5,212 nt of DNA from a virus (Duplodnaviria; Heunggongvirae; Uroviricota; Caudoviricetes). Below, one piece after another: positions 1 to 5,212 of the stretch (positions are counted from its first letter, which is position 1; each line of letters starts with the position of its first letter). The position numbers and the translations under genes are program-made. The notes below the pieces were generated by a model. It saw nothing but the letters and a program-made list of their open reading frames with translations, had not been told where the DNA came from and did no database searches. The stretch is from the IMG/VR virus record IMGVR_UViG_2609460332_000003. The stretch is one strand, 5' to 3'.

Positions 1-264
1 CTTATTTCGGGGAGATCTGTTTACAGTATCGGATCTTCGGTCCGTGGTGATGACGTTGCCATTAGTCCAGCGCTGAAGTGTCCGAATAGAAATACCGATA
101 CACCTACAAGCCTGACTTTTCCGGGCGCCGTTGATAACGGCCTCGTGGATAAGAGAAATAATTTTACGCCGCTCCAGGAGAGGGGTCAGTCTTCCTCGCT
201 GTTGTCCCAGAGGGCATTGAACTTTTCCCTTAATATAAGCAGGGCCGCTGCTTCCGCCAGAGCT
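1..264 (-). CDS. IS3-family transposase OrfB, N-terminal fragment (-1 frame relative to orfA; partial, runs off window start)
   Basis: The minus-strand frame -1 relative to orfA is open from the TAA at 267-265 to position 1 (88 codons with no stop) and overlaps the last ~26 codons of orfA. Its translation (...RRKIISLIHEAVINGARKSQACRCIGISIRTLQRWTNGNVITTDRRSD...) has the HTH-like motif seen at the start of IS3-family OrfB proteins. A candidate A-AAG slip site sits at minus-strand GGGAAAAG (plus coordinates 229-222). Confidence 0.5.
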
Positions 265-698
265 TTATCTTTGCGCTTAAGCTCTTTCTCCAGTTCTCGT
301 AACTTATTTTTTGCGTCACGCAATGCCCTGTCTGTTCGGATATTTTCCGTCAATTTCTTTTCATGCGCCTGAATTGAGATAGCCCGCCATTCTTTAACCT
401 GTTCAACAAACAATCCCATGCGTCGGCAATAATCAGCTAGTTCCATTTCTGACAGCGTAGCCGTCTCAAGAACAACTGAGAATCGACGCTCCGGTGTCCA
501 GTCTTCAACATCAACGGAGGTAATCTTTTCATTTTCAGGTAAAAGTCCTTGCTCCACTAACTCACATCTCCATTTTGATACAACTGAGGCACTGATCTTC
601 AGCTTACGGGCTATCTGACGATGTGACCAGCAGTATGGTGGTAAAAGCCATATCAGTCCTTTCTCTTTGAGTTCACTTGGTATTGGTTGTCCTGGCAT
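186..698 (-). CDS. IS3-family transposase OrfA (N-terminal HTH, C-terminal leucine-zipper-like coiled coil)
   Basis: ORF track gives 186..728 (180 aa) from a TTG. The in-frame ATG at 698-696 (MPGQPIPSELKEKG...) is preceded by a strong Shine-Dalgarno (minus strand AAGGAGATAACA-ATG), so I place the start at 698 (170 aa). The protein has HTH-like segments (IARKLKISASVVSKW; LSEMELADYCRRMGLFVEQVKEW) and a C-terminal heptad-repeat region (LRDAKNKLRELEKELKRKDKALAEAAALLILREKF), typical of IS3/IS150-group OrfA. The exact IS name is not recognised. Confidence 0.75.
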   Translation of the reverse strand: MPGQPIPSELKEKGLIWLLPPYCWSHRQIARKLKISASVVSKWRCELVEQGLLPENEKITSVDVEDWTPERRFSVVLETATLSEMELADYCRRMGLFVEQVKEWRAISIQAHEKKLTENIRTDRALRDAKNKLRELEKELKRKDKALAEAAALLILREKFNALWDNSEED

Positions 699-772
699 TG
701 TTATCTCCTTAAAAAATTGAGGCGACAACTATGCTGACACAGGGGGTTACTCACCGATCTCCTTCACGGTAA

Positions 773-1003
773 TACGCAACTTTCTCCGGGGATTATCTCC
801 GCGTAACTGACAACAAGGGGAAAACGCACGATGTGCTGACCGGAAGTGATGACGGTCGCCACAGCAACACGTCTCTGGCGTGGGGGGCTGGCGTGCAGTT
901 TAACCCGACCGAATCCGTGACCATTGACCTTGCTTATGAAGGTTCCGGTAGTGGCGACTGGCGAACGGATGCATTTATTGTTGGTATCGGATACCGTTTC
1001 TGA
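773..1003 (+). pseudogene. lom: 5'-truncated lom-like gene (Ail/Lom/OmpX-family outer membrane protein), C-terminal ~76 codons only
   Basis: The frame ending at TGA 1001-1003 translates to YATFSGDYLRVTDNKGKTHDVLTGSDDGRHSNTSLAWGAGVQFNPTESVTIDLAYEGSGSGDWRTDAFIVGIGYRF*. The ...AYEGSGSGDWRTD.FIVG.GY.F terminus is the characteristic last beta-strand region of lambda Lom/Ail-family proteins. There is no N-terminal signal peptide or first ~130 codons; the frame is closed by TAA at 770-772 right next to the IS. Gene order lom then stf then tfa matches lambda. Confidence 0.8.
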
Positions 1004-1107
1004 CAACAGACGCCGATTTATCTTCTGTAAATATTGTTATGATACGCAGGTTCATCCACCTTATGGGGTGAACTGCGTTTGAGGAAACGTAAAGTTACAC
1101 TGTCCTG

Positions 1108-1141
1108 AAGCCCGTGGCGTCACTGCTGCGGGCTTTTTTTA
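1108..1141 (+). terminator. Putative rho-independent terminator downstream of lom
   Basis: AAGCCCG (1108-1114) pairs with CGGGCTT (1129-1135) as a 7-bp GC-rich stem, with a 14-nt loop, followed by a T-run (1134-1141). It lies 13 nt upstream of the stf ATG. Confidence 0.5.
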
Positions 1142-1154
1142 TTGGTGGAAAAGT

Positions 1155-2792
1155 ATGACAGTAAAAATTTCTGGCGTGCTTAAAGATGGCACAGGAAAAC
1201 CAGTACAGAACTGCACCATTGTGCTGAAGGCCAGACGAACCAGCAGCACGGTGGTGGTGAACACGGTGGCCTCTGAAAATCCGGATGAAGCCGGACGTTA
1301 CAGCATGGATGTTGAGCATGGTCAGTACAGCGTCACCCTGCTGGTTGAAGGTTTTCCGCCTTCACATGCCGGGACCATTACCGTCTATGAAGGTTCCAGA
1401 CCAGGTACGCTGAATGATTTTCTCGGTGCCATGACGGAGGATGATGTACGACCGGAGGCACTGCGCCGCTTTGAGCAGATGGTAGAAGAGGTGTCACGTA
1501 ACGCCTCCGCGGTTGCACAGAATACGGCAGCCGCGAAAAAATCAGCCAGCGATGCCAGTGCATCAGCCAGCGAGGCGGCAACTCATGCAACCGATGCTGC
1601 AGCCTCATCACGTGCCGCCAGCACGTCAGCCGGACAGGCCGCGTCGTCGGCTCAGTCAGCGTCTTCCAGCGCAGGAACGGCATCGACAAAGGCCCGTGAA
1701 GCAGCAAAAAGTGCTGCTGCTGCAGAGTCATCAAAAAGCGCGGCAGCTACCAGCGCCAGTGCCGCGAAAACGTCAGAAACGAATGCCGCAGCATCACAAA
1801 AATCGGCAGCCACTTCTGCATCCACAGCGACCACGAAGGCGTCAGAAGCTGCCACCTCGGCACGGGGTGCGGCGGCCTCAAAAGAGGCAGCGAAATCTTC
1901 AGAAACGAATGCATCATCAAGTGCCAGTAGTGCAGCTTCCTCGGCAACGGCGGCAGGAAATTCCGCGAAGGCGGCAAAAACGTCCGAGACGAACGCTAAG
2001 TCTTCTGAAACAGCAGCGGGACAGAGCGCCTCAGCTGCGGCAGGTTCAAAAACAGCGGCTGCATTATCTGCCAGTGCCGCGTCAACAAGTGCCGGGCAGG
2101 CCTCAGCCAGTGCCACCGCCGCCGGAAAATCGGCAGAAAGCGCCGCATCATCCGCTTCAACAGCCACAACGAAGGCTGGCAAAGCCACTGAGCAAGCCAC
2201 TGCAGCAGCGAGGTCTGCTTCTGCAGCAAAAACCTCTGAAACAAATGCAAAGACTTCAGCAGACAATGCTGCTTCCTCTAAGGCGGCAGCCGCATCGTCA
2301 GCCAGTTCAGCGGCGTCATCGGCATCATCTGCGTCTGCTTCAAAAGATGAGGCGACCAGACAGGCGTCAGCAGCAAAGGGCAGCGCCACGACGGCATCCA
2401 CGAAGGCGACAGAGGCAGCTGGCAGTGCGACGGCGGCAGCTCAGAGCAAAAGTACGGCGGAATCCGCGGCAACGCGCGCCGAGACAGCGGCAAAACGGGC
2501 AGAGGATATTGCATCCGCCGTGGCGCTTGAGGATGCGAGCACGACGAAAAAGGGGATAGTACAGCTCAGCAGTGCGACCAACAGCACTTCCGAGTCACTG
2601 GCGGCAACGCCAAAAGCGGTTAAGGCGGTAATGGGTGAAACGAACAAGAAAGCGCCCTTAAATAGTCCTGCACTGACCGGAACGCCAACAACACCAACTG
2701 CGCGACAGGGAACGAATAATACCCAAATCGCAAGCACGGCTTATGTTATGGCTGCGATCGCTGCCTCGTGGACTCGTCGCCTGACGCACTGA
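1155..2792 (+). CDS. stf: Side tail fibre protein Stf, N-terminal portion (545 codons; reading frame terminated prematurely by an apparent 1-nt deletion)
   Basis: ATG at 1155 preceded by GGTGG (1144-1148). N-terminus MTVKISGVLKDGTGKPVQNCTIVLKA... followed by a long Ala/Ser/Thr-rich repeat region with recurring K(T/S)SETNA motifs, as in lambdoid prophage side tail fibres. The frame ends ...TAYVMAAIAASWTRRLTH*, whereas the conserved tail-fibre motif ...AAIAALVDSSPDALNTLNELAAALGNDP... continues in the next frame. Confidence 0.85.
   Translation: MTVKISGVLKDGTGKPVQNCTIVLKARRTSSTVVVNTVASENPDEAGRYSMDVEHGQYSVTLLVEGFPPSHAGTITVYEGSRPGTLNDFLGAMTEDDVRPEALRRFEQMVEEVSRNASAVAQNTAAAKKSASDASASASEAATHATDAAASSRAASTSAGQAASSAQSASSSAGTASTKAREAAKSAAAAESSKSAAATSASAAKTSETNAAASQKSAATSASTATTKASEAATSARGAAASKEAAKSSETNASSSASSAASSATAAGNSAKAAKTSETNAKSSETAAGQSASAAAGSKTAAALSASAASTSAGQASASATAAGKSAESAASSASTATTKAGKATEQATAAARSASAAKTSETNAKTSADNAASSKAAAASSASSAASSASSASASKDEATRQASAAKGSATTASTKATEAAGSATAAAQSKSTAESAATRAETAAKRAEDIASAVALEDASTTKKGIVQLSSATNSTSESLAATPKAVKAVMGETNKKAPLNSPALTGTPTTPTARQGTNNTQIASTAYVMAAIAASWTRRLTH
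1497..2520 (+). repeat. Imperfect in-frame tandem repeats encoding an Ala/Ser/Thr-rich low-complexity region of Stf
   Basis: Recurrent near-identical DNA words: AAAACGTCAGAAACGAATGC (1767-1786), AAATCTTCAGAAACGAATGC (1893-1912), AAAACGTCCGAGACGAACGC (1977-1996), AAAACCTCTGAAACAAATGC (2228-2247). The GCN/TCN codon periodicity leaves alternative frames open on both strands. Confidence 0.75.
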
Positions 2793-4060
2793 ATACGCTG
2801 AACGAGCTGGCTGCGGCGTTGGGCAACGACCCGAATTTTGCGACCACCATGACTAGCGCGCTTGCGGGTAAGCAACCGAAAGATGCCACCCTGACGGCGC
2901 TGGCCGGGCTTGCTACTGCGGCAGACAGGTTTCCGTATTTTACGGGGAATGATGTTGCCAGTCTGGCAACCCTGACAAAAGTTGGGCGGGATATTCTTGC
3001 GAAATCGACCGTTGCCGCCGTTATCGAATACCTCGGTTTACAGGAAACGGTAAACAAGGCTGGTAACGCCGTTCAGCGTTCCGGCGATAAAATGACCGGA
3101 GAACTGAAAATTGGCACGGTGAATGCGCTGCGAATTTTCAATGATGCCTTCGGTCTTATTTTCCGTCGTTCAGAAGATTTTCTTCATTTCATTCCGACGG
3201 CTGAAGGACAAGGCGAAAACGGTGATATCGGCCCATTAAGGCCATTCGCTATAAATCTGAGAACAGGTGCTATATCTGTCAGCCACGGGGCCAAAATTGA
3301 TGGTGGGCTGGCGCTTGGTACAGATAACGCACTGGGCGGTAATTCCATTACTCTCGGAGATAACGACACTGGTATTAAACAGGGCGGCGACGGTGTCCTT
3401 TTATTCTATTCAAATGGACAACTGGCATTTGGGCTTCAACCCGCATCTGCTGATTTTTATAAGCGGGTTGCATATATTCATCAGGGAATAATTCCTGATG
3501 GAAGTGGCGCATTTGCAGACCAGTTGAATAATGCCACCGCGCCTTTTGTTCAGACGCAGTTTGCCTGGAATCCCACTCCTGGTGGTCTTTACGTGCCGAT
3601 AGTTAAGGGCTTGTCCATTCGCAATGGACAGGGCTATCCCGGCGCGGTCAGCTTTGGGTATTTACTGACAGAACAGTATGGATTTCCGGTTCCATGTATT
3701 CATATGCGTGGCGATGGCGGTAATGATGCTTTATGGCAGTTTAACCCGAACGATAAATCCTTTATTTCACCGGGTGCTCTTATTGCGGGTGGCGTCCGTT
3801 ATAACACCGATGGAAATATATTTGGTGGGTGCTGGGGGTCAAACTTAAATGATTACCTGAATAGTTCTTTTATCAGAAATGTGCGTCTGGGAGGCAGACG
3901 TTCTGACACATTATATCGCGGAGGACTTTGCGAACCAGGTAATGGTCATGTGACAACAGGATTGCAAATTATTGGTGAGGTTGATGGAGATGACTGGATG
4001 GTGTCACGACCACTACAAAAATACATTTCTGGTAACTGGTATAACGTTGAACAGGCATAG
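2768..4060 (+). CDS. stf: Side tail fibre protein Stf, C-terminal portion: conserved collar region (2768-3046) plus variable receptor-binding domain (3047-4060); in a different frame from the N-terminal portion
   Basis: Translation from the ORF-track start (GTG 2768) reads (M)DSSPDALNTLNELAAALGNDPNFATTMTSALAGKQPKDATLTALAGL...FPYF...VGRDILAKSTVAAVIEYLGLQE..., the conserved collar shared by P2 H, Mu S, lambda Stf and T4 gp37-type fibres. It ends ...KYISGNWYNVEQA* (TAG 4058-4060). The true protein is most likely continuous with 1155-2792. Confidence 0.85.
   Translation: MDSSPDALNTLNELAAALGNDPNFATTMTSALAGKQPKDATLTALAGLATAADRFPYFTGNDVASLATLTKVGRDILAKSTVAAVIEYLGLQETVNKAGNAVQRSGDKMTGELKIGTVNALRIFNDAFGLIFRRSEDFLHFIPTAEGQGENGDIGPLRPFAINLRTGAISVSHGAKIDGGLALGTDNALGGNSITLGDNDTGIKQGGDGVLLFYSNGQLAFGLQPASADFYKRVAYIHQGIIPDGSGAFADQLNNATAPFVQTQFAWNPTPGGLYVPIVKGLSIRNGQGYPGAVSFGYLLTEQYGFPVPCIHMRGDGGNDALWQFNPNDKSFISPGALIAGGVRYNTDGNIFGGCWGSNLNDYLNSSFIRNVRLGGRRSDTLYRGGLCEPGNGHVTTGLQIIGEVDGDDWMVSRPLQKYISGNWYNVEQA
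3021..3046. other. Gin/Pin/Cin/Hin-family 26-bp DNA-inversion crossover site (gix/pix-like), left boundary of an invertible segment
   Basis: TTATCGAATACCTCGGTTTACAGGAA. From memory, Mu gixR is TTATCCAAAACCTCGGTTTACAGGAA, giving 24/26 identity. It has the 12-2-12 layout with a central TC, and lies in frame inside stf (encoding VIEYLGLQE) at the conserved/variable junction. Confidence 0.7.
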
Positions 4061-4075
4061 CCATCAGGAGAATAT

Positions 4076-4603
4076 ATGCAACATCTGAAAAATATTACCG
4101 CCGGAAACCCCAAAACCATTGAGCAGTATCAGCTTACGAAAAAAGCTGGCGTTATCTGGCTATATACAGAAGACGGTAAAAACTGGTATGACGAATTAAA
4201 AAACTTTCAGGATGATACTTTAAAAATAGCTTATGACCAGAAGGGGATTATTCGTTGTATTGAGAAAGACGTATCAACACTTAACCCTGACGGGTTAAGT
4301 GTTGTTGAGTTACCGAATATAACAGCCAACCGTCGCGCCGATATCTCGGGAAACTGGAAGTTTCTGGATGGTAAAGTAGTAAAGCGGGAATATACAAAAC
4401 AGGAACTGCAACAGCAGGCAGAGTTACAAAAAGCCGCTTTGCTTTCCGAAGCGGAGTCTGTGATTCAACCGCTGGAACGTGCTGTCAGACTGAATATGGC
4501 AACTGATGAGGAACGCACACGACTGGAATCATGGGAACGCTACAGCGTTATGGTCAGCCGTGTGGATACTGCAAAGCCTGAATGGCCACAGAAACCAGAA
4601 TAA
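4076..4603 (+). CDS. tfa: Tail fibre assembly protein (Tfa; Mu U / lambda Tfa family)
   Basis: ATG 4076 preceded by AGGAG (4066-4070) with 5-nt spacing, 15 nt after the stf stop. The 175-aa product [23 protein letters not shown]...ITANRRAD...[23 protein letters not shown] follows the stf-then-tfa arrangement and has the Tfa-family C-terminal pattern (W.RY...V...DT......P..PE). Confidence 0.9.
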
Positions 4604-4612
4604 CAACAAATT

Positions 4613-4630
4613 AAGGCCCGTACGGGCCTT
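4613..4630. terminator. Perfect 18-bp palindrome (AAGGCCCGTACGGGCCTT) between convergent tfa and tfa'; putative bidirectional rho-independent terminator
   Basis: 7-bp GC-rich stem with GTAC loop. It is followed by TTTTCTT on the plus strand and by TTAATTTGTTG on the minus strand, and lies in the 30-bp gap between the two convergent stop codons. Confidence 0.55.
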
Positions 4631-4633
4631 TTC

Positions 4634-5167
4634 TTATTCTGGTGGTTCCGGGAATGTTACAGGAAGAACCGAGGTATCAGTTGTCTCAACCTGTTGCACG
4701 TATCGCATCCAGTTCATCAGTTGCTGTCTGTCTGAATCAGTGATAATCCCCAAAGTAAGCTGTGTTTGCCAGAACTGCGTTTTTTCTCTGGCCTGCTGTA
4801 ATAATATTTTTTTCTGGTTTTCCGTCTGTAGGCGCAACTCTTCTTCGGTATATACACGTTTAATGACTGCGCCATCTTTAAACATCCATTTACCTGAGTC
4901 GTCAGCACGCCGGTTGGCGGTAATATCAGGAATCTCAACGACGCTATAACCTTCAGGGTTAAGTGTGGAGGCATCTTTGGTTATGGCAACAATAATATTA
5001 TTTTCATCGTAAACAATCTTTATGGTGTCTGGCTGAAAGTTTTTCACTTCCTCATACCAGTTTTTTCCGTCCTCAGAGTAAAGCCAGATAACTCCGTGTT
5101 TCTTTGTTAACTCATACTGTTCCAGTGTTTTAGCATTACCCGCTTTTATGTTCTTTAAGTGCATCAT
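4634..5167 (-). CDS. Alternate tail fibre assembly protein (Tfa'; Mu U'-like), inverted relative to tfa
   Basis: 177-aa [41 protein letters not shown]...ITANRRAD...[25 protein letters not shown]. By eye it is about 70% identical to Tfa over the first ~110 residues and diverged after that. Its start is 1 nt downstream of the stf' stop, suggesting translational coupling. Confidence 0.9.
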
Positions 5168-5168
5168 A

Positions 5169-5212
5169 TTAAACGCTCGCTACATTATACCAGGTGCCAT
5201 TTATATACTTTG
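5169..5212 (-). CDS. 3' end (last 13 codons plus stop) of an alternate side-tail-fibre variable domain (stf'), partial at window edge
   Basis: Minus strand 5210..5169 translates to [13 protein letters not shown], which parallels the Stf C-terminus KYISGNWYNVEQA*. The stop TAA (5171-5169) is immediately followed by the tfa' ATG (5167). Confidence 0.6.

What the first reader, a model, noticed from the sequence alone, without database searches (positions are those of the whole stretch)
1..1003. IS3-family element inserted into the prophage lom gene, leaving only its C-terminal third
lom is present only as its last ~76 codons (773-1003). Directly upstream, on the opposite strand, is an IS3-like orfA/orfB pair whose end falls at about 765-780. 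The window shows one IS end and roughly half of the element. IS disruption of lom-like genes in cryptic lambdoid prophages is known, and here it marks prophage decay alongside the stf frameshift.
Basis: inference. Interest (0 to 1): 0.4.

Follow-up and report, generated by a model that had tools for sequence, protein, structure and literature searches.

The report
IS nested in IS splitting lom

Summary
Window 1-746 (minus strand) is the orfA-side 46% of a 1630-bp IS3-family element. Window 779-1003 is the last 74 codons plus stop of lom, 100% identical to an intact lom.

The IS3-family element ends at 746, not 765-780. Window 747-778 is the outermost 32-bp terminal repeat (R1) of the IS21-family element ISEc12. 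The R1/lom junction, with the 5-bp duplication ACTTT, is the one found in ST131-type genomes such as EC958, where a complete ISEc12 splits lom. Window 746-5211 differs from EC958 by a single 1-bp deletion, the stf frameshift.

So ISEc12 disrupted lom. The IS3-family element later landed in ISEc12's right end. One plasmid shows the same nested insertion, in the same orientation, with both copies of a TTAC duplication. What lies left of the window cannot be seen.

Side observation: in E. coli this IS3 lineage repeatedly inserts 29-33 bp from the tips of two different IS21-family elements, and the ISEc12 interior is often lost afterwards.

Verdict: ordinary, already present in annotated genomes, low interest. 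The target preference is the only mildly new point.

The parts
1..746 (-). orfA-proximal 746 bp (46%) of a 1630-bp IS3-family insertion sequence; the rest runs off the left edge of the window
   Evidence: megablast to many E. coli copies annotated 'IS3 family transposase, programmed frameshift'. End mapped by flank comparison of more than 10 copies. 771/778 identical to the copy in plasmid NZ_AP022299.
186..698 (-). orfA (170 aa, HTH plus coiled-coil region), intact
   Evidence: ORF list. The exact protein is found on 801 contigs, named 'putative transposase' or 'hypothetical'.
223..231 (-). -1 programmed frameshift motif AGGGAAAAG joining orfA to orfB
   Evidence: Reading through it gives a 512-aa OrfAB in the full copy and an open 233-aa fusion in the window. 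PGAP annotates a programmed frameshift.
1..230 (-). 5' part of orfB (second HTH region), open to the window edge; the DDE/rve domain lies outside the window
   Evidence: Translation in the -1 frame. Pfam HTH_23/HTH_32 at residues 176-280 and rve at 305-403 of the full OrfAB.
721..746 (-). terminal inverted repeat of the IS3-family element (CCCCCTGTGTCAGCATAGTTGTCGCC on the minus strand)
   Evidence: Same 26 bp at the orfA-side end of every copy, with different DNA beyond it. It pairs with CGGCGTTTTTCAAGGTAGTTGTCGCC at the other end.
747..778 (+). R1, the outermost 32-bp terminal repeat of IS21-family ISEc12 (TTACTCACCGATCTCCTTCACGGTAATACGCA), cut off from the rest of ISEc12 by the IS3-family element
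   Evidence: Identical to the right tip of ISEc12 (the ISEc12-bearing loci are PGAP-annotated with istA/istB in L002) at six sites with different flanks. It belongs to ISEc12's set of repeated end motifs.
747..750 (+). TTAC, inferred right-hand copy of the 4-bp target duplication made by the IS3-family element
   Evidence: L023 shows ...GATGTTAC|IS3-like|TTACTCACC... at the same site and in the same orientation. The left-hand copy is outside the window.
779..783 (+). ACTTT, right-hand copy of the 5-bp target duplication made by ISEc12 in lom
   Evidence: Intact lom reads GTCGACTTTCTCC. In L002 and L014 the sequence ACTTT flanks both ISEc12 tips. A 5-bp duplication for ISEc12 is also published (PMC10711316).
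779..1003 (+). lom 3' remnant: codons 126-199 plus stop, with no start codon or signal peptide
   Evidence: Pfam Ail_Lom positions 126-199/199. 225/225 identical to intact lom.

Best explanation
Two successive insertions, one element inside the other. First, ISEc12 (IS21 family, istA/istB, about 2.58 kb) inserted into lom of a lambdoid prophage next to the trp operon, duplicating lom nt 376-380 (ACTTT). This state is fixed in ST131-type genomes such as EC958. Second, in the lineage that gave this window, a 1630-bp IS3-family element inserted into ISEc12's right end. OrfA is 170 aa, and a -1 frameshift gives a 512-aa OrfAB. The insertion is at the boundary between the second and the outermost terminal repeat, 32 bp from the ISEc12 tip. 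Its orfA side faces the tip, and it probably duplicated TTAC. The window therefore reads: IS3-family element (1-746), orphaned ISEc12 R1 (747-778), lom 3' remnant (779-1003). Shown: the element boundaries, the identity of the 32 bp, the identity of the lom junction with ISEc12::lom genomes, and the same nested insertion elsewhere with its duplication. Inferred: the order of events, and what lies left of the window. That is either the rest of ISEc12 and then lom 5', or only the 33-bp left repeat L1 and then lom 5', because the ISEc12 interior is often lost after such insertions. lom was already dead before the second event, so the second event has no further effect on lom. Splitting off R1 probably disables that ISEc12 copy (inference).
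For: 1. The IS3-family end is at 746. More than 10 copies share sequence up to CCCCCTGTG.../...AACGCCG and diverge beyond it. Clean 4-bp duplications occur in motB (ATAG) and miaB (GTCA).
2. Window 747-778 is identical to the ISEc12 right tip at six different sites, each with its own 5-bp duplication where both flanks are visible: ACTTT, AGGGC, CCAGG, GTTTG, GGGGA. PMC10711316 reports the 5-bp duplication ACTGC for ISEc12 in tssM.
3. Window 746-5211 equals EC958 and four other ISEc12::lom loci, with 0 mismatches and one 1-bp gap. lom in those loci is split at the same nucleotide.
4. Plasmid NZ_AP022299 (L023) has the simple nested form ...istB...GATGTTAC|IS3-like|TTACTCACC...TACGCA.
5. The junction between the IS3-like orfA end and R1 occurs in 241 of 5426 complete E. 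coli genomes.
6. At two other loci that carry L1-IS3like-R1, other genomes have the left end of a full ISEc12 at the same site: 39 genomes at one locus, 1-3 at the other. So such structures form in place from resident ISEc12 copies.
Against: The IS3like-R1-lom junction itself was found nowhere else. It is absent from 5426 complete E. coli genomes, from IMG/VR and from JGI metagenome contigs. The frameshifted 545-aa Stf product is not on record either. The source genome could not be recovered and the left side is unseen. A mis-join through the 32-bp repeat during assembly cannot be formally excluded.
Confidence: 0.85

Rival explanations
1. One reading: the IS3-family element itself transposed into lom, its end is at 765-780, and a 3-4-bp duplication of lom flanks it.
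For: The element and the lom remnant are only 32 bp apart. megablast alignments of whole IS3-like copies run to 778-781, because many copies carry the same 32 bp.
Against: Copies in motB, miaB and other contexts end at the base equivalent to window 746. Window 747-778 is the ISEc12 tip. The lom junction is that of ISEc12::lom, with a 5-bp duplication.
Confidence: 0.03
2. A chimeric unit L1-IS3like-R1 (1695 bp, with ISEc12 tips) moved into lom as a whole, driven in trans by the ISEc12 IstA/IstB proteins.
For: Such units exist at several loci, each flanked by a 5-bp duplication typical of ISEc12: L001 CCAGG, L008 GTTTG, L005 GGGGA.
Against: It would have had to hit the same nucleotide, in the same orientation, as the ISEc12 resident in a lineage whose flanking 4.4 kb is identical. 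At the L001 and L008 sites other genomes carry the left end of a full ISEc12, so those units arose in place rather than by transposition.
Confidence: 0.05
3. Assembly artefact: a contig wrongly joined through the 32-bp R1 repeat. R1 is shared by an IS3like|R1 junction elsewhere in the genome and by the ISEc12::lom junction.
For: Each half-junction is common on its own, but the combination is unique to this window. The only other difference from EC958 is a homopolymer 1-bp deletion, a typical sequencing error.
Against: A 32-bp repeat is shorter than the k-mers or reads that normally decide joins. Insertion at exactly this ISEc12 site is documented elsewhere, so the structure is biologically expected.
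Confidence: 0.07

Closest known systems
ISEc12 (IS21 family) insertions in E. coli ST131, e.g. ISEc12::tssM (PMC10711316) and ISEc12::lom in EC958 (HG941718)
   Same: Same element tip, same 5-bp target duplication, and the same lom junction as in the window.
   Different: In the window only the last 32 bp of ISEc12 are visible. An IS3-family element separates them from whatever remains of ISEc12.
Nested form ISEc12::IS3-family element in plasmid pBEC1-S17-ESBL-09_1 (NZ_AP022299)
   Same: Same IS (771/778 identical), same site and orientation in ISEc12, with a visible TTAC duplication.
   Different: The ISEc12 there lies next to repA on an IncF plasmid, not in lom, and is itself truncated by another IS3-family element.
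IS-disrupted lom in cryptic lambdoid prophages, e.g. lomR::IS5 in Rac of E. coli K-12 (from memory, not tested here)
   Same: The same kind of prophage decay: an Ail/Lom gene next to stf, split by an IS.
   Different: A different IS family, and a single insertion rather than a nested pair.
IS1353 (IS3 family) inside IS1326 (IS21 family) in integron In2 of Tn21 (from memory; the two papers searches gave no details)
   Same: An IS3-family element residing inside an IS21-family element.
   Different: No IS1353-labelled relative appeared among the 40 listed rows of the tblastn hits at E<=1e-20. The position of IS1353 within IS1326 was not checked here.
ISAs20 and ISPsy31 (IS3 family)
   Same: About 56% identity over the OrfB part. 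Relatives in Pseudomonas share the inverted-repeat core TAGTTGTCGCC.
   Different: No evidence that they insert at IS21-type tips.

Membership tests
IS3 family (element at window 1-746) | DDE transposase with an rve catalytic core; whole protein passes the curated IS3 model | tested here: met
   OrfAB of the 99%-identical full copy scores 212 bits on NF033516 transpos_IS3 (cutoff 160), and matches rve (E 5.8e-17) and rve_3. The catalytic part lies outside the window. The window holds the first 233 residues, which differ at three positions (M94T, I205V, N215K).
IS3 family (element at window 1-746) | Two overlapping frames, orfA and orfB, fused by a -1 programmed frameshift at a slippery run | tested here: met
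   The motif AGGGAAAAG lies at the end of orfA. The -1 frame is open for 512 aa in full copies. PGAP annotates a programmed frameshift. Frameshifting itself was not tested experimentally. There is no Rfam hit.
IS3 family (element at window 1-746) | Short target duplication of 3-5 bp | tested here: met
   ATAG in motB, GTCA in miaB, TTAC in ISEc12.
IS3 family (element at window 1-746) | Terminal inverted repeats ending 5'-TG...CA-3' | tested here: inconclusive
   The 26-bp imperfect repeats are CCCCCTGTGTCAGCATAGTTGTCGCC and CGGCGTTTTTCAAGGTAGTTGTCGCC. The tips are CCCCC and CGGCG, and TG appears only at positions 6-7 of one end.
IS21 family / ISEc12 (window 747-778) | Identity to the tip of an element that carries istA and istB | tested here: met
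   32/32 identical to the right tip of the element whose genes PGAP annotates as 'IS21-like element ISEc12 family' istA/istB. No ist gene lies in the window.
IS21 family / ISEc12 (window 747-778) | Ends with several repeated motifs, tips TG...CA, and a 4-8-bp duplication (5 bp for ISEc12) | tested here: met
   Repeat families D1, D3, I1, I2 and I5 at both ends of ISEc12. Tips are TGCGTA...TACGCA. 5-bp duplications at five sites, also published.
Ail/Lom outer-membrane protein (window 779-1003) | Match to the family profile, and a complete beta-barrel with signal peptide | tested here: not met
   Only profile positions 126-199 of 199 are present. The first 125 codons are missing from this position, so it is a gene remnant and not a functional member.

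The most novel reading that the evidence does not exclude
The E. coli lineage of this IS3-family element, including a variant only 77% identical in protein, behaves as a site-specific parasite of IS21-family elements. It inserts at the boundaries between the terminal repeats, above all 29-33 bp from the tip. It does so in two IS21-like elements whose 32-bp terminal units differ in sequence apart from the tip (AATACGCA) and a GATC: ISEc12, and a relative with tip TGCGTATTCCGCTCTATTCGATCACGGATTGG. That suggests it recognises the architecture of the end, or bound IstA, rather than a plain sequence. The ISEc12 interior is then repeatedly lost, leaving L1-IS3like-R1 chimeras. Eight of 10 sampled contexts and about 250 of 389 E. 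coli records that carry the element show it abutting such a repeat. I found no description of this in the paper library, but ISfinder could not be consulted.
Probability: 0.4. Interest if true: 0.45.

Novelty: already known. Interest (0 to 1): 0.2.

Why it matters
For annotation, the right reading changes the predictions. The element that killed lom is ISEc12. The duplication in lom is 5 bp (ACTTT). The upstream sequence should contain ISEc12 sequence, at least the 33-bp L1 repeat, before the lom 5' part. It also ties the window to the ST131-type prophage lineage, because the ISEc12::lom junction is a shared derived marker. Biologically it is routine prophage and IS decay with no new function. 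The only point of wider interest is that this IS3 lineage seems to home in on the ends of IS21-family elements. If the preference is specific, that would be a compact case of one IS targeting and disabling another, and a source of chimeric IS ends that confuse automated boundary calling, as happened here: whole-copy BLAST alignments ran on to 778.

Tried and rejected
1. Looked for the source genome or the same junction. There is no complete E. coli genome with IS3like+R1+lom, and no exact 57-nt junction in IMG/VR or JGI metagenome contigs. The 545-aa frameshifted Stf is not on record. Contigs with the exact Tfa all carry plain ISEc12::lom, an intact lom, or a truncated tail region without lom (L017).
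2. Considered that the 32-34-bp outer repeats are the IS3-family element's own ends, as the first alignments suggested. Rejected, because copies without them exist and have their own 4-bp duplications.
3. Considered that L1-IS3like-R1 moves as a unit using ISEc12 proteins. Weakened, because the left end of a full ISEc12 occupies the same sites in other genomes.
4. Tested for kinship with IS1353, the IS3 element inside IS1326. No IS1353-labelled relative appeared among the 40 listed rows of the plasmid tblastn hits, and the papers searched gave no site details.
5. Asked whether relatives in other species also sit at IS21 tips. Only 3 of 80 loci have IS21-type genes within 1.5 kb, and none shows the tip-proximal junction.
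6. Tried to name the IS. PGAP and the protein cluster give only 'IS3 family transposase', 'putative transposase' or 'hypothetical', and ISfinder is not available.
7. Rfam scan of the window: no hit.
8. The counts for the L1 and R1 junctions (252 and 248 records) probably overlap, because the two 93-bp queries cross-match. They are used only as 'about 250'.

Full report
WHAT IS IN THE WINDOW

On the minus strand, 186-698 is a 170-aa ORF preceded by AAGGAG. Its last codons contain AGGGAAAAG (window 231-223). Reading on from there in the -1 frame stays open to the left edge of the window. A 99%-identical full copy (L001, NZ_CP048304) is annotated by PGAP as 'IS3 family transposase, programmed frameshift'. 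Its 512-aa OrfAB scores 212 bits on NCBIfam transpos_IS3 (cutoff 160) and matches Pfam rve, rve_3 and HTH_32.

On the plus strand, 779-1003 matches Pfam Ail_Lom profile positions 126-199 of 199. It is 225/225 identical to the 3' end of an intact 199-aa lom (L019).

WHERE THE IS3-FAMILY ELEMENT ENDS

But the lom/stf side matches ST131-type genomes at 100% from window 746 onward. That gives a 33-bp overlap, which cannot be explained by one simple junction.

Contigs that encode exactly the window's OrfA gave ten copies in different contexts. Aligning their flanks shows that all copies share sequence only between CCCCCTGTGTCAGCATAGTTGTCGCC... and ...GGCGACAACTACCTTGAAAAACGCCG, a span of 1630 bp. 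Copies in motB and miaB carry clean 4-bp duplications (ATAG and GTCA). In the window this end is at 746.

WHAT 747-778 IS

In E. coli 4/1-1 (L002), EC958 (L014) and others, lom is split by an element that PGAP annotates in L002 as the IS21-like element ISEc12, with istA and istB. The structure there is lom nt 1-380, then TGCGTATTTTCATGAAAGGAGATCACTCAATAAC..., then ...GATGTTACTCACCGATCTCCTTCACGGTAATACGCA, then lom nt 376-600. ACTTT is duplicated.

The last 32 bp are identical to window 747-778, and the junction with lom is the same. The 32 bp form one unit of ISEc12's set of repeated end motifs. They terminate ISEc12 at six sites with different flanks, five of which show their own 5-bp duplications. 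A 5-bp duplication for ISEc12 is also published (ACTGC in tssM of EC958; PMC10711316).

Window 746-5211 is identical to EC958 and four other ISEc12::lom loci except for one missing C in a CCC run at 2763-2765. That deletion is the stf frameshift. The window therefore descends from the ISEc12::lom lineage. ISEc12, not the IS3-family element, disrupted lom.

HOW THE IS3-FAMILY ELEMENT GOT THERE

A synthetic query joined the ISEc12 right interior (ending GATGTTAC) to the far end of the IS3-family element. It found plasmid NZ_AP022299 at 100% over its full length. In that plasmid the sequence reads ...CCATCGATGTTAC|CGGCG...IS3-like...GGGGG|TTACTCACC...TACGCA. This is a simple insertion with a 4-bp TTAC duplication, at the same site and in the same orientation as in the window. 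The opposite orientation at the same site also exists.

The junction seen in the window (IS3-like orfA end next to R1) occurs in 241 of 5426 complete E. coli genomes. The best reading is therefore a second insertion in place, into the ISEc12 already resident in lom.

WHAT LIES TO THE LEFT

This cannot be seen. In many genomes the IS3-family element sits directly between the 33-bp L1 and the 32-bp R1, with the ISEc12 interior gone (L001, L005, L008). The L1|IS3-like junction is in up to 127 genomes, against 22 for the junction with the interior retained. Either form may lie upstream.

I tested whether such L1-IS3like-R1 units move as units. At the L001 and L008 sites, other genomes carry the left end of a full ISEc12 at the same position (39 genomes and 1-3 genomes). 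So the units arise in place, presumably by recombination between, or deletion from, IS3-like insertions at both ISEc12 ends.

SIDE OBSERVATION: TARGET PREFERENCE

- Eight of the ten sampled contexts have the IS3-family element inside the terminal repeats of an IS21-family element.
- In ISEc12 the hit sites are the boundaries after L1, L2 and L3, and before R1.
- A variant only 77% identical in protein is also inserted after L1 (L024).
- A second IS21-like element (IstA 511 aa), whose 32-bp terminal unit shares only the tip (AATACGCA) and a GATC with ISEc12's, is hit at the same distance from its tip (L003, L025, and the native end in L007).
- L009 shows GATGTTACCGGTTACTCACC at the R2/R1 boundary. 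This is a 7-bp insertion that looks like an excision footprint at that site.
- The element occurs in 375 of 5426 complete genomes (441 places). About 250 records have its orfA end against an ISEc12 repeat. Those two counts overlap, and neither is corrected for shared ancestry.
- Relatives in other species (40-65% identity) share the inverted-repeat core TAGTTGTCGCC but show no such junction.
- I found no description of this preference in the paper library. ISfinder could not be consulted, and the element remains unnamed.

COMPARISON WITH KNOWN SYSTEMS, AND VERDICT

IS-split lom genes, ISEc12 insertions in ST131 and nested ISs are all familiar. Both elements and both half-junctions are already in annotated public genomes. 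Only their combination at lom is new: it was found in none of 5426 complete genomes and in no viral or metagenome contig.

The finding is a real but ordinary mark of prophage decay. An assembly mis-join through the 32-bp repeat is the only rival that cannot be excluded without reads, and I rate it at about 7%.

Noticed in passing
window 2763-2765: The stf frameshift is the loss of one C from a CCC run. It is the only difference from EC958 over window 746-5211. It splits a 968-aa Stf into 545-aa and 430-aa ORFs. It could be a real mutation or a homopolymer sequencing error.
   Followed up: partly
window 3015-5211 (crossover within 3015-3041): This block holds the stf 3' part, tfa at 4076-4603, and a second, oppositely oriented tfa at 4634-5167. 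In other genomes (L013, L015, L017, L018, L022) it is inverted relative to the stf 5' part. It is therefore an invertible tail-fibre segment of the Pin/Gin type. Only a 60-aa resolvase fragment was seen nearby, in L019 and L022.
   Followed up: partly
L009 about 14050-14070: The ISEc12 R2/R1 boundary reads GATGTTACCGGTTACTCACC, with 7 extra bases (a second TTAC plus CGG). This looks like an excision footprint of the IS3-family element at exactly the site it occupies in the window.
   Followed up: no
L001 584-2278; L005 7085-8779; L008 9920-11614: These are chimeric units of ISEc12 L1 (33 bp) + IS3-family element + ISEc12 R1 (32 bp), in both orientations, each flanked by a 5-bp duplication. At two of the sites other genomes hold the left end of a full ISEc12, so the units formed in place by loss of the ISEc12 interior.
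   Followed up: yes
L003 9921-9952; L025 4567-4598; L007 13274-13305: A second IS21-like element (tip TGCGTATTCCGCTCTATTCGATCACGGATTGG) is hit by the IS3-family element at the same 32-bp distance from its tip as ISEc12. The two terminal units share only the tip (AATACGCA) and a GATC.
   Followed up: partly
L006 about 9950-11590; L010 about 9950-11590: Copies of the IS3-family element interrupt motB (duplication ATAG) and miaB (duplication GTCA) in two E. coli genomes. These are likely loss-of-function insertions.
   Followed up: no
window 1107-1136: A terminator-like hairpin followed by a T run lies between the lom stop and the stf start (13-pair stem). It is probably the lom terminator.
   Followed up: no
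L007 about 10520-14225: Triple nesting: the IS3-family element sits in the left-end repeats of an ISEc12, and is itself interrupted in orfB by the second IS21-like element.
   Followed up: no
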